Shown here: one piece after another, positions 13,862 through 17,623 of the stretch | How positions within the stretch are numbered: the stretch's first letter is position 1 | How the letters are laid out: every line of letters begins with the position of its first letter | Assembly: GCF_006345805.1 (NCBI RefSeq) | Contig: NW_021835141.1 | Location: 34,750 to 98,749, forward strand | Direction: 5' to 3' | Source of the DNA: Octopus sinensis | Taxonomy: Eukaryota | Length of the DNA stretch: 64,000 nt | Notes under the pieces: model-generated | What the model saw: only the letters and a program-made list of their open reading frames with translations | The model's database searches: none | What the model was told of the DNA's origin: nothing | Position numbers and translations under genes: made by a program

Positions 13862-13913
13862 TTGGGGTGTCATCAGGTTTATCGTCGCAAGATTTCTTGG
13901 AGATGACACGGTT
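13862..13913 (-). CDS. G2 exon 2b (52 nt, Cys variant)
   Basis: tttttccacag|[17 protein letters not shown]|gtaaga, phase 0 to 1. Confidence 0.7.
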
Positions 13914-13959
13914 CTGTGGAAAAATAGAGAGTATTTATTATCGTTTAGAACTGAAAAAA

Positions 13960-14640
13960 GAATGCAATACATGACAACATTTTCGGACAGCATTTTATGA
14001 AGATGTGGGTGACGTCGACATTGTCCATTCTACCAAATCTATTATATCGTGTTACATCTTGGAGGTTTGCTGGAACTGCATGCCTTTCTGTGAATCTGGT
14101 ATTTCATTATTTCATGCTTGTATATGGCAAAGCATACACATTACATACATAAACAGCTAATATCCCTGTACATTGTCAAGAGTAGACTAATTTTGCTATC
14201 TAAAATCGCTGGTAGTTTGAAGATGACTAGAAACGTTAGACTTGCGCATTCTGCTGACGTACAAGAAAGCCCGAAGCCAACCTTTCATGTACGGCGTCCT
14301 AATCCGCTGTAGGACTATTCCACTGCGTCCTTAGGGGAATCTGTCAAGGCAATATGATGCAATATTTAAAAGTAGTTTGAATTGATGTAAAAGCTCAATT
14401 GCCTTGATATTATTTAGTATAGTTATCCATCATGATCACTGAAGAGTCGGGCATTTCTAGCACTGGTGAATAATATTCCGGATTGAAGCTCGAAGGTCAA
14501 CATATCTTTTGGCGTTCAATGGAATATCACAAAAGTTTGTAAGAAAAATGTTAGGGAACATATATAGTAGGTTATAAATTGACTGCATACGAAAGGGATG
14601 AGGATTAGATATTTTGTACACGGGTGCTATATAAACTGGT
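13960..14640 (-). mobile_element. Possible old RLE-type (R4/Dong-like) LINE fragment (copy 48140-48810)
   Basis: DVTHIFIKCCPKM resembles the CCHC knuckle end of RLE LINEs; otherwise highly decayed. Confidence 0.3.
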
Positions 14641-14851
14641 TATTCACTCCTTAAATATAGTGTGTATATGTAGATGTATATATGTAAGTGTATAAAAATT
14701 TATATATATATATATGTGTGTGTGTGTTGATATATATATATATATATATATGTTTATACATATATATAACATATGTTTGTGTGTATGTGTTTACATATAT
14801 ATATATGTATATATATATGTATACATATTTACATATATATATATGTATTTA

Positions 14852-15323
14852 TATTGGGTTGCCTGGAAAGCTCGTGCCGATTTTTAAAGGAATATAAAGG
14901 GCCAATAAATACTTGCCATTGCATTTTTAAACAACCAAATATGAACCATTTTGTTGCACTATGCTTCTCCATCTTTCCTTTAACTTGAAAATACCCTCTT
15001 TCCAGAATTGAGGTGGTTTCATGGCAAAGAATTCATCGAGGTATCTTTTGACGTCATTCAAGCAATTAAAATTTTTACCATTAAGACTATTCTGCAGAGG
15101 CCTGAATATGTGGAAATCCGAAGGTGCAATATCTGGCGAATATGGAGGGATGGAGTAATACATGCCAGCCGAGCTGCAGCAATTTTTGTCTGGTTCCCAA
15201 AGCATCAAGTGCCGAAAATGAACTTTCTTATCCTGCCTTTTCAAGTGTTACAAAATTAACACTGGTTATAGGAACATAAACCTTTATAACACGAAAAGAT
15301 AGCTTAAACTGCGCTCTAACTGC
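14852..15323 (-). mobile_element. Internally deleted mariner transposon, one TIR lost
   Basis: PPYSPDIAPSDFHIFR...GIFKLKERW transposase C-terminus joined to N-terminal HFRHLMLWE; TA-TTGGGTTGCC TIR. Confidence 0.85.
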
Positions 15324-15429
15324 GCACACATACATAATACATACACACATATTTACTCACACGCACACATACATAATACATACACACATATTCACACACA
15401 AGCACACATACATACCTAAATAAATACAT

Positions 15430-15483
15430 GCATACAGACATAAATATATGTTAACAAAAGAATCCATGACTTACCGTTTTTGA
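15430..15483 (-). pseudogene. Orphan remnant of exon-1 3' end plus donor and intron-1 start
   Basis: AAAAACG|GTAAGTCATGGATT at 15475 matches the true exon-1 donors; fused to RTE LINE sequence. Confidence 0.8.
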
Positions 15484-17335
15484 TGGGAGCACAATATTGA
15501 CGGTCTCAGGACAACAAAGCAGATCAAGAAGGGAACCTTTAATAATTGAGAATTAAAACGTCAAAATTGTTAGATATAATCTGCCTGTAAGATATAATCG
15601 GTGTCTCCTCTACAAAATTTCCTTTCTCCGATAGCGTACACCTGGATATAGGCTTGAAACTCCACTACGCAACTGTGGTGCCAGCAATGTCTGCACAGGT
15701 GGGATTAGGATACTCTCAATCCACAGCTTTCGGATTGTATTATGGAGTGAAACCTACTAGGTGTGAGTGTTCACTTCTTGAAACTAAGGCTGAATATGAA
15801 GGACCACTGTGGCTGCTGTAAGTATATGCAGCAAACAGCGGTCAAATACAAATCCTTCCTAAGCAAATTCACCTCAGCTTTAGATATATTTGGGACAAAG
15901 TCATTTGTCCTGCAAGGAGACTTCAGTGCACACCTTGGCACTGATAACCGTGAGAAGGATTGATTGGAAGGAATGTCGGCAGAGAACTTAAAGAACAGGT
16001 CATAGCAGCCTTCTGTGCAGGATACACACTCTCCTCTCTCTGGTATAGATATTATTTTAAGACAGGGATATTTATAAGGGTGCCTGATATAGAAATACTT
16101 GGTGACAGAGGTTTTTGATAGAGTTCGGTCATCTTTCACTCTTTTCTGAACGTTCAGGTAAAAGGTGAAGTGGAGTTGTCACCTCGTCACTACCTAAATG
16201 TCTGAAAACCTGAAAATTCCTACAGTCTGCCGAACACTGGAAATTGGTAAGTCCAGTGCGACCTACAGACTACAGTTGGAAGCCGCAGTGGATGCTGGGA
16301 TCAGAAACAAAAATGTGGAGACTTTTGCATCCAAGTTGAGAGTGACCCGCCTGAATGAACTTGGACCTCGAAATGGATTCGTGGTTGTATTATTTTTTCG
16401 GCAGGTTCTTCTTCGGTTGAACGCTTATTTGAGCTCAATTCACTTAAAAGTGATAAACCTGCTGGTGATTAGCACGTTGGGCTTGAAATTTTAGAAATCT
16501 TAAATACAGATGGTATTCTCTGAGTGACACATATATGGTAGGTGGATGGGACCTCTGGAAAAAACACCAAGGCAATGGTAATATGGGGAGACAATTACAA
16601 ATGTTTTCAAACAGAGACCAAAGAGTGAGTTCTAATTATAGAAATGTCTATTCTAGATGTCAGGAAAAGATATGCAGGGGAATTGTCGCGCCCAAGATTA
16701 CTGTCCGGGACGCGGAGCACCCGACCAGATAGTCGTTCAAAACAGATATTCCAGCAAACACTGAAATATTTCCAAGGTTTAAACGATGTAAACAACGGAA
16801 AGGCACACGATCACGTGCCCTGGGGCATGTTGCGGATGGTTTACCAGGAAGGTGAGTTTAATGGGCAAATACTGGTTGCCATAAAGTACTTATATGGATG
16901 TTCAAATGATTGTATTATGTAAAAGTCGAAAGTTTTCAACGTGAAGGTTTCACTCAGTTGATGGTGCATTGTTAGTGTCCCTTCTCACATTCTTTTTTGT
17001 GATCTGGTTGAATATGCGCAGCGATTGTGGTAGAGGTATCCCAATTCATCTCTACGTGATCGGTCGACTGTTATTTGTAGACAACATGCTGCTACCTGAT
17101 TCGTCTGATAGTCACCAACAACGTGCATTGAATTGGTTAGCTGCCGAGTACCCCAAGGCAGGATTGACAAATACGCACTCTGTAGGAAAGTGGAAAATCA
17201 TTATTTCGGGTCTCTATTCACGAAACGATTGGAAGCAGAAGAGTGGACAGGATGCTGAATTGTAGATATAAACGCAGTGAAGCTCGGGAATATGATTCTC
17301 AGATGAAGAGGTCTTGGAACAATTATTGACGTAGC
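15484..17335 (+). mobile_element. Degenerate RTE-clade LINE (copy at 49935-51555)
   Basis: LQGDFSAHLGTD (APE), KAHDHVPWGML, RLLFVD(N/D)M (RT). Confidence 0.7.
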
Positions 17336-17571
17336 ACTGCATATATACTCATATACACACAATATATGGCATAGTATATAAGAATAACATTTTATTTAGG
17401 AAATTATTGTAAAGTAGAATATATTTCGAAATAAATTCAGGCAAGTGTCTTAGTATATACTATTGTGGACATGTGGATAGTAATGTGGAACTAATTCAAA
17501 GTTGGTGAAATTATAAACCATGACTTAAGGAGACACGGGTTAATGACTTTAGCTATAAAATTAGTTCTTAC

Positions 17572-17623
17572 TTGGTGTGTCATCAGGTTTATCGTCGAGA
17601 GATTTCTTGGAGATGAAACGGTT
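17572..17623 (-). CDS. G2 exon 2a (52 nt)
   Basis: ttttttcacag|[17 protein letters not shown]|gtaaga, phase 0 to 1. Confidence 0.75.

What the first reader, a model, noticed from the sequence alone, without database searches (positions are those of the whole stretch)
13862..17623. Fusion genes with two competing 52-nt exon 2s, born from a deletion between tandem paralogs
Seen: G2 and G4 each carry exon 2a (KKSL/FDD) and exon 2b (KKSCDD) with intact strong splice sites. Between them sits an orphan exon-1 donor (15475; 49927) welded to the RTE LINE that normally lies in intron 2. This records a deletion removing exons 3-4 of one gene and most of exon 1 of the next. Including both exons shifts frame to a TAA in 2b (KPCHLQEILRR*), so productive mRNA needs mutually exclusive splicing. 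Exon 2b adds an extra stalk Cys kept in both copies; inference: an isoform switch for disulfide-linked oligomers.
Basis: partly seen in the sequence, partly recalled or inferred. Interest (0 to 1): 0.74.

Follow-up and report, generated by a model that had tools for sequence, protein, structure and literature searches.

The report
Octopus fusion gene with frame-rescuing exon
Two neighbouring octopus matrix-protein genes were joined into one gene with two copies of a small exon, and the join seems to have created a third small exon out of retrotransposon DNA that would let both copies be read in frame, so the either/or splicing switch first proposed is not needed; no RNA evidence could be obtained.

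Summary
The anatomy is confirmed. G2 and G4 are Octopus 'short-chain collagen C4-like' genes (collagen IV NC1-like fold, no collagen helix). Each has exons 2a and 2b, with an orphan exon-1 donor joined to an antisense retrotransposon remnant. G3 keeps the unjoined lineage, so the junction links two paralogs; deletion versus duplication is undecided.

The claim that mutually exclusive splicing is required is wrong at sequence level. An AG 62 nt upstream of the orphan donor defines exon X (15536-15475), and 2a-X-2b is open and in frame in both genes. Six NCBI O. sinensis models use X; one (P0022, matching G4) joins 2a-X-2b. These models look partly ab initio, so use of X in RNA is unproven.

The Cys is not a fixed trait (3 of 7 2b-type records). 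No steric block or U12-type site was found, and the RNA-pairing test was inconclusive.

Best reading: a paralog junction whose frame is rescued by a junction-born exon (0.42). Plain skipping with decay 0.33; regulated Cys switch 0.07. No junction reads were obtained.

The parts
22702..22845 (-). G2 exon 1 coding part (48 aa; hydrophobic signal-anchor-like stretch), donor ACG|GTAAGT, phase 0
   Evidence: 98% to O. vulgaris models
17572..17623 (-). G2 exon 2a, 52 nt, [17 protein letters not shown], phase 0 to 1
15482..17340 (+). Decayed non-LTR retrotransposon remnant of paralog A intron 2, antisense to the gene, cut at the junction (ends approximate)
   Evidence: its 2b-side copy scores as RT-like
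15475..15536 (-). Candidate exon X, 62 nt: acceptor AAAG|G in the antisense element, last 5-10 nt and donor from a paralog's exon 1; phase 1 to 0; SLLDLLCCPETVNIVLPSKT
   Evidence: used by NCBI models P0013, P0018, P0020, P0022, P0024, P0121
14927..15247 (-). Stop-free frame resembling a mariner transposase C-terminus, in the intron between X and 2b (family recalled; no Pfam hit)
13862..13913 (-). G2 exon 2b, 52 nt, [17 protein letters not shown]
11500..13480 (+). Paralog B copy of the same retrotransposon remnant (about 21% substitutions from copy A; ends approximate)
11018..11092 (-). G2 exon 3, 75 nt, phase 1 to 1
8498..8997 (-). G2 exon 4 coding part (NC1-like domain); as assembled a frameshift near 8895, TAA at 8586-8584 and a frameshift near 8577
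62816..62958 (-). G4 exon 1 (one base short near 62893 as assembled)
51815..51866 (-). G4 exon 2a
49927..49988 (-). G4 candidate exon X
   Evidence: 100% to residues 20-39 of P0022
48042..48093 (-). G4 exon 2b
45261..45335 (-). G4 exon 3
42942..43440 (-). G4 exon 4 (frameshift near 43340 as assembled; open in NCBI record P0022)
28244..40361 (-). G3, unfused A-type paralog (exon 1 40361-40218, single exon 2 33358-33307, exon 3 31180-31106, exon 4 28739-28244); the outgroup that shows the pre-junction intron

Best explanation
A non-homologous junction with a few bases of microhomology joined intron 2 of paralog A, inside an antisense retrotransposon remnant, to the last bases of exon 1 of paralog B (shown). 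The fused gene was later copied with its neighbour as a 34-kb unit, giving G2 and G4 (shown). Exons 2a and 2b were both constitutive exons with strong sites, so the default is to include both (inferred). That is productive only if the junction region is also spliced in. The surviving strong donor pairs with a pre-existing AG in T-rich antisense element DNA to define a 62-nt exon X, and 52+62 nt restores the frame (shown at sequence level). The likely main product is 1-2a-X-2b-3-4, a type II anchored protein with a 38-residue longer, unstructured stalk and an NC1-like domain that trimerises (inferred). 1-2a-3 and 1-2b-3 are open too and may be side products; 1-2a-2b-3 has a stop 92 nt before the last junction and would be decayed (inferred). 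If exon 2 holds the family's convertase site, the extra stalk is shed with the anchor and costs little (inferred).
For: Frame test of 8 exon paths per gene: 1-2a-3, 1-2b-3 and 1-2a-X-2b-3 are open in both G2 and G4; the other five are not. Of the AGs within 400 nt upstream of the orphan donor, only the 62-nt one gives an open in-frame exon, in both genes. It has a 41-42 nt AG-free zone, 9 T in positions -20 to -4 (true acceptors 9-11) and a CTAAC at -36/-37. Six NCBI O. sinensis models enter X at this acceptor and splice X to a 2b-type exon; P0022 joins 2a-X-2b-3-4 and matches G4 at 100% in X and 2b and in the part of 2a it uses. The domain stayed constrained after the G2/G4 split: 1 of 21 amino-acid differences falls in the 77 of 171 columns invariant among 16 unfused paralogs (p about 6e-5), so some path was probably productive; gene conversion could mimic this. 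Residues 1-55 of P0022 have low confidence and no secondary structure, and the rest folds like collagen IV NC1. A three-copy model scored 0.91 against a best control of 0.00, with at least 89% contact agreement and pLDDT at least 83. That mark was reached by 21 of 30 solved pairs and 0 of 23 single chains (animals 7 of 16); the calibration used two copies, and the pass may be recall of solved NC1 trimers. A furin-type R-x-[KR]-R motif lies in 25 of 67 family stalks against a shuffled mean of 3.7, maximum 9; the sequences are related, not independent.
Against: No transcript shows X. None of the 7 records with a 2b-type exon starts with the true exon 1. The sequences upstream of X differ between models; three map to antisense element frames and one to G4 intron 1, which looks like ab initio extension. 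X's acceptor has A at -3, where the 11 exon-2/3/4 acceptors have C or T. X shows no amino-acid constraint (3 of 3 G2/G4 changes are non-synonymous), and an open in-frame exon could arise by chance roughly 1 time in 7 (my estimate). G2/G4 dN/dS of 0.60 is not significantly below 1. In an O. vulgaris ink proteome the only exon-2 peptide is the Leu-type exon 2-3 junction (3 spectra); no X or Cys-type peptide is in the stored part of the supplement. Octopus exon 2 mostly has KK, not a furin consensus. All three genes are broken as assembled.
Confidence: 0.42

Rival explanations
1. Plain competition plus decay: X is rarely used, one exon 2 is skipped often enough (1-2a-3 or 1-2b-3) to keep the gene useful, and 1-2a-2b-3 is removed by nonsense-mediated decay. 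The two exons look mutually exclusive among stable mRNAs, but nothing regulates the choice and the Cys is incidental.
For: Both single-exon paths are open. The double-inclusion stop lies 92 nt before the last junction. Decay-assisted exclusivity is a listed mechanism (PMC6071210, passages). X has a non-YAG acceptor. The one exon-2 junction peptide on record is Leu-type exon 2 to exon 3, though it cannot be assigned to a fused gene and is from O. vulgaris.
Against: Both exons keep equally strong sites inherited from constitutive exons, so most transcripts would be wasted without X. No record with true exon 1 joined to 2b was among the 121 proteins inspected.
Confidence: 0.33
2. The fused genes are dead or split: either G2/G4 are recent pseudogenes, or the B half is transcribed on its own from inside the element (X-2b-3-4, no anchor) with exon 1-2a a stub.
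For: G2 has three lesions in exon 4 and G4 has lesions in exons 1 and 4 as assembled. The NCBI X-bearing models all lack the true exon 1, and P0121 runs out of frame after exon 2.
Against: P0022 has G4's exon 4 open. All but one lesion can be read by eye as a one-base change in a homopolymer run, and unfused G3 has one too. Amino-acid changes avoid invariant columns. The exon-1 and upstream region is only 2-4% different between genes.
Confidence: 0.16
3. One reading: regulated mutually exclusive splicing of 2a and 2b switches a free Cys on and off, giving disulfide-linked versus unlinked oligomers.
For: The exons are homologous with equal length and phase. The domain has 10 invariant or nearly invariant Cys, so the 2b Cys would be the odd one. 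The domain models as a trimer. A GC-rich 12-mer after both 2a and 2b can pair with both element copies, -18 to -22 kcal/mol.
Against: X removes the need for exclusivity. The exons are 3,658 nt apart and all sites are GT-AG with ordinary donors. The pairing count is within shuffles (1 shared helix against 0-4). The best duplex was reached by 1 of 60 and 4 of 60 shuffles after being picked from about 40 windows per flank, and it is lost in G3 without compensatory change. Cys is in only 3 of 7 2b-type records.
Confidence: 0.07
4. Origin rival: internal tandem duplication of 'exon-1 end to intron 2' inside a single gene, not a junction between paralogs.
For: It gives the same junction sequence. 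A separate paralog (P0025 and P0026, with short form P0021) has an internal exon 2-3 duplication, so the family does this.
Against: G3 is A-like up to the junction (12% from copy A, 30% from copy B over the last 150 nt) and has its own continuation 24-26% from B, as deep as A versus B upstream (20-28%).
Confidence: 0.1

Closest known systems
Spongin short-chain collagen (SSCC)-related / 'short-chain collagen C4-like' proteins
   Same: Database names of the closest homologs. The model matches collagen IV NC1: Foldseek E 1.6e-6, 15% identity; VIA Z 7.4, rmsd 4.6 over 149 residues, one of only 2 chains with Z of 2 or more, both NC1. SSCC carries NC1 domains (PMC5867623, passage).
   Different: No Gly-X-Y helix; a signal anchor and short stalk instead. 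No Pfam family hit and no solved relative by sequence.
Mutually exclusive exons from tandem exon duplication (Dscam, srp type; PMC6071210)
   Same: Two homologous exons of equal length and phase with homologous flanking introns; frameshift on direct joining.
   Different: The copies come from two genes joined together, not one exon duplicated. An intervening exon can restore the frame. No enforcing mechanism was found.
Exonisation of antisense retroelements (Alu/LINE type)
   Same: Acceptor taken from T-rich antisense element sequence in a long intron.
   Different: The donor is a transplanted native exon-1 donor supplied by the rearrangement. Exonisation is reported as very low in the three invertebrates surveyed (PMC2911107, abstract).
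Chimeric genes from rearrangement within tandem paralog arrays (general knowledge, recalled)
   Same: 5' part of one paralog joined to the 3' part of another, then re-duplicated.
   Different: The junction is out of register (intron 2 to exon-1 end), so one exon ends up present twice.
Octopus paralog LOC115221348 (P0025 isoform X1, P0021 isoform X6) and O. vulgaris P0026
   Same: Same family, a second exon-2 copy with a Cys, a longer stalk, and annotated long and short isoforms.
   Different: There the bridging exon is a frame-shifted copy of exon 3, not element DNA.

Membership tests
Mutually exclusive exon pair | Adjacent homologous exons of similar length and the same phase | tested here: met
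   52 nt each, phase 0 to 1, 47-48 of 52 identical
Mutually exclusive exon pair | One and only one exon included in mRNA | not testable with these tools
Mutually exclusive exon pair | Double inclusion cannot give an open frame | tested here: not met
   Direct 2a-2b is out of frame, but 2a-X-2b is open in G2 and G4
Mutually exclusive exon pair | Steric block from a very short intervening intron | tested here: not met
   3,658 nt between 2a and 2b
Mutually exclusive exon pair | U2/U12 splice-site incompatibility | tested here: not met
   All donors GTAAGT, GTAAGA or GTTAGT and acceptors YAG/AAG; U12 consensus recalled
Mutually exclusive exon pair | Conserved docker/selector RNA pairing | tested here: inconclusive
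   One candidate at chance-level count, lost in G3, no covariation data
SSCC-related / short-chain collagen C4-like | Collagen IV NC1-like C-terminal domain with conserved cysteines | tested here: met
   (on P0022, the record matching G4)
SSCC-related / short-chain collagen C4-like | Collagen triple-helix repeat (present in sponge SSCC and some relatives) | tested here: not met
   No PF01391 in the Octopus records; present in amphioxus hits. So it works like a helix-less relative, not a collagen proper
Exonised retroelement | Exon body and acceptor derive from an antisense element | tested here: met
   54 of 61 aligned bases match G3's intron-2 element; element on the + strand
Exonised retroelement | Included in mature mRNA | not testable with these tools
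   Only gene models of unknown RNA support
RTE-clade LINE | Reverse transcriptase and APE endonuclease domains | tested here: inconclusive
   Atlas first hit 0.96 with RVT_1 on 30% of members; Pfam found nothing on 4 of 4 fragments; GDF and FADD motifs seen by eye
RTE-clade LINE | RT phylogeny places it in RTE | not tested
   No reference set available

The most novel reading that the evidence does not exclude
The rearrangement built its own rescue in one step: an element-derived acceptor and a paralog's exon-1 donor, brought together at the breakpoint, form a new coding exon that keeps a chimeric gene in frame. The fused gene then multiplied to six or more loci in O. sinensis and can choose among three open stalks, perhaps steered by an RNA helix whose two arms were both duplicated.
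Probability: 0.35. Interest if true: 0.58.

Novelty: new variant of a known kind. Interest (0 to 1): 0.4.

Why it matters
If X is spliced in, this is a clean, datable case of a breakpoint creating a coding exon and rescuing an out-of-register gene fusion, in an invertebrate, with the unfused parent next door as control. It is also a caution: an apparent need for mutually exclusive splicing can vanish once cryptic exons are counted. The family is an expanding, secreted NC1-like group of unknown function in Octopus. If X is not used, the locus is ordinary birth-and-death turnover in a tandem array.

Tried and rejected
No whole genome is held for this window, so a stand-alone B gene and the direction of the event could not be looked for. 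Cluster members could not be listed, so isoforms hidden in 90% clusters (for example the 8 members behind P0003) were not seen. Sequencing runs: no RNA holder listed; 24 rows, 20 hold part of G2 exon 4, labels are guesses and none was laid, so they are not used as evidence. No read-laying result was obtained, which leaves junction use and the exon-4 lesions open. Pfam found no family for the protein and phmmer found no PDB relative. The docker/selector scan over 8 configurations gave shared helices within or near the shuffle range. My first frame test had X off by one base and was redone. KR/RR pairs are not enriched in family stalks (40 of 67 against 38.5 shuffled); only the full furin motif is. 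The 2b Cys (residue 48) is not among the confident interface residues of the trimer model, which the tool says is no evidence either way. Earlier scan notes: nothing by place or sequence. Literature searches listed no paper describing this locus or its splicing; the library lacks most subscription journals, and Aouacheria 2006 was seen only as a reference title. Rejected: misassembly (G2 and G4 differ by 3-11%); selection on the Cys (no signal); internal duplication as the main origin model.
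Full report
What is there. The window holds a minus-strand tandem array of four-exon genes: G4, G3, G2 and exon 1 of G1. A search with exon 1 returned 9 proteins among 44 candidates, all Octopus, most named short-chain collagen C4-like; the four closest are 98% identical. The NCBI O. sinensis record P0022 matches G4 at 96-100% in every aligned piece, so the window is O. sinensis or very close. The predicted fold of P0022 (mean pLDDT 84; residues 1-55 low) matches collagen IV NC1. 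There is no collagen helix.

Observation. G2 and G4 lie about 34.2-34.5 kb apart and differ by 3-11% across segments. They are therefore one event copied, not two events and not a misassembly.

Origin. At the junction only 5-10 nt of exon 1 remain, with AAAC shared by the element and the exon end. Over the last 150 nt before the junction, unfused G3 is 12% from the 2a-side element and 30% from the 2b-side copy. Past the junction it continues collinear with the 2b-side intron at 24-26%, the same depth as A versus B upstream. So G3 is an intact A-type gene and the junction links two old paralogs. Whether DNA was deleted (A then B) or duplicated (B then A) cannot be told from this window. The order fused gene then A gene fits either, and no genome is held.

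The missed exon. A search with P0003 gave 357 hits, of which 120 were listed; a search with the 2a-X-2b part of P0022 gave 5 hits among 7 candidates. Among the 121 distinct proteins retrieved, 7 have a 2b-type exon, all O. sinensis. Six of them (P0013, P0018, P0020, P0022, P0024, P0121) have before it a peptide that maps to 15534-15475 or 49986-49927; the seventh is a partial record that starts at 2b. This is a 62-nt exon X, from AAAG|G in the antisense element to the orphan donor. Of 8 exon paths tested per gene, 3 are open in both: 1-2a-3, 1-2b-3 and 1-2a-X-2b-3. X's acceptor is the only AG within 400 nt of the donor that gives an open in-frame exon in either gene. It has a 41-42 nt AG-free zone and a branch-point-like CTAAC, but A at -3. 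P0022 joins 2a-X-2b-3-4. Mutual exclusivity is therefore not required.

How far the models can be trusted. None of the 7 records begins with the true exon 1. The upstream parts of P0013, P0018 and P0121 map to antisense frames of the element, and that of P0020 to G4 intron 1. P0022 and P0024 enter an exon 2 at an internal position. This looks like ab initio extension, so the models show that X is a well-formed in-frame exon, not that it is transcribed. The 237 unlisted hits and the members hidden inside 90% clusters were not seen.

Broken as assembled. G2 exon 4 has two frameshifts and a TAA; G3 exon 4 has one frameshift; G4 has one in exon 1 and one in exon 4, plus a compensating pair. P0022 has G4's exon 4 open. 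By eye all but one lesion are one-base changes in homopolymer runs, and 10 of 13 single-base indels between G2 and G4 in the B element sit next to the same base (no random baseline computed). Between G2 and G4, 1 of 21 amino-acid differences hits the 77 of 171 columns invariant in 16 unfused paralogs (p about 6e-5). dN/dS is 0.60, not significantly below 1. I read the lesions as mostly long-read errors, with G2 the least secure because no identical intact record was found.

The cysteine. It is present in 3 of the 7 2b-type records; 4 have Leu. Between G2 and G4, both changes in 2b and all three in X alter amino acids, at rates like the flanks; the counts are too small to test. The domain has 10 invariant or nearly invariant Cys, so an unpaired 2b Cys is plausible. 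A three-copy model of residues 40-247 scored 0.91 against a best control of 0.00, with at least 89% contact agreement and pLDDT at least 83. The mark was reached by 21 of 30 solved pairs and 0 of 23 single chains, and 7 of 16 animal pairs; the pass may be recall of NC1 trimers. A furin-type motif sits in 25 of 67 family stalks (shuffles: mean 3.7, maximum 9), and exon 2 holds what looks like the matching place, usually as KK and as KR in P0016 and P0027. If cleaved there, the Cys would be the second residue of the shed domain (inference).

Tests for mutually exclusive splicing. PMC6071210 (passages) lists steric block, U2/U12 incompatibility, decay and docker/selector pairing. The first two fail. 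Decay applies to 1-2a-2b, with the stop 92 nt before the last junction (the 50-nt rule is recalled), but X bypasses it. One candidate helix, a GC-rich 12-mer after both exons that pairs with both element copies, is at chance-level count and is lost in G3.

Expression evidence. In PMC10142993 (passages and supplement rows, file cut when stored), O. vulgaris ink contains a family member identified through a transcript-derived 1-2a-3-4 frame. The peptide spanning the Leu-type exon 2-3 junction was seen in 3 spectra. All 9 stored occurrences of the exon-2 motif are Leu-type and X does not occur. This shows that the family is expressed and secreted; it cannot be assigned to a fused gene. The unstored part of the supplement could bear on this.

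Comparison and verdict. The parts are known: chimeric paralogs, antisense exonisation (very low in the invertebrates surveyed by PMC2911107, abstract) and decay-assisted exon choice. The combination, a breakpoint-made exon that restores frame, was not found for this locus in searches. PMC5867623 and PMC6626399 were seen as passages only. Odds on how it is expressed: X-bridged 0.42, plain skipping with decay 0.33, dead or split 0.16, regulated Cys switch 0.07. It is a new variant of a known kind; interest 0.4, limited by the lack of RNA junction data.

Noticed in passing
P0025, P0026, P0021: A separate paralog in O. sinensis and O. vulgaris has an internal exon 2-3 duplication read as a frame-shifted exon 3 copy plus a second exon 2 with Cys, annotated with long and short isoforms: a second route to a Cys-bearing longer stalk in the same family.
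   Followed up: partly
window 51815-51866 and 48042-48093: G4's 2a and 2b share a Thr-to-Pro change that neither G2 exon has; the first 45 nt after G4's orphan donor are also closest to G4's own exon-1 donor. Possible gene conversion within G4.
   Followed up: partly
window about 52500-62500: G4 intron 1 carries a large insertion absent from G2, with endonuclease and reverse-transcriptase fragments.
   Followed up: partly
window 14927-15247 (shared with G4, about 49050-49520): Mariner-like transposase remnant in the intron between X and 2b (family recalled; no Pfam hit).
   Followed up: partly
exons 3-4 of G2, G3, G4: Amino-acid differences cluster in a few loops (P0003 positions about 97-101, 121-138, 194-200), while exon 1 and its upstream region differ by only 2-4%: a conserved scaffold with variable loops, as in recognition-protein families.
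   Followed up: partly
family stalks: Furin-type motif enriched between anchor and domain across molluscs and other invertebrates; mostly reduced to KK in Octopus.
   Followed up: partly
P0001, P0002, P0004, P0005: Four O. vulgaris models join exon 2 directly to exon 4 in frame (exon 3 is 75 nt, phase 1 to 1); unclear whether real skipping or prediction.
   Followed up: no
window 34874-36559: Near-identical direct and inverted copies of a 470-bp unit in G3 intron 1, including a 1.1-kb palindrome-like block; also an inverted pair at 37637-38369.
   Followed up: no
window 15537-15560 versus G3 31850-31875: The fused genes lack an upstream AG that G3 and the B copy have, which lengthens the AG-free zone before X; they also lack 3 nt at X's start. 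A single event, so weak evidence of tuning.
   Followed up: partly
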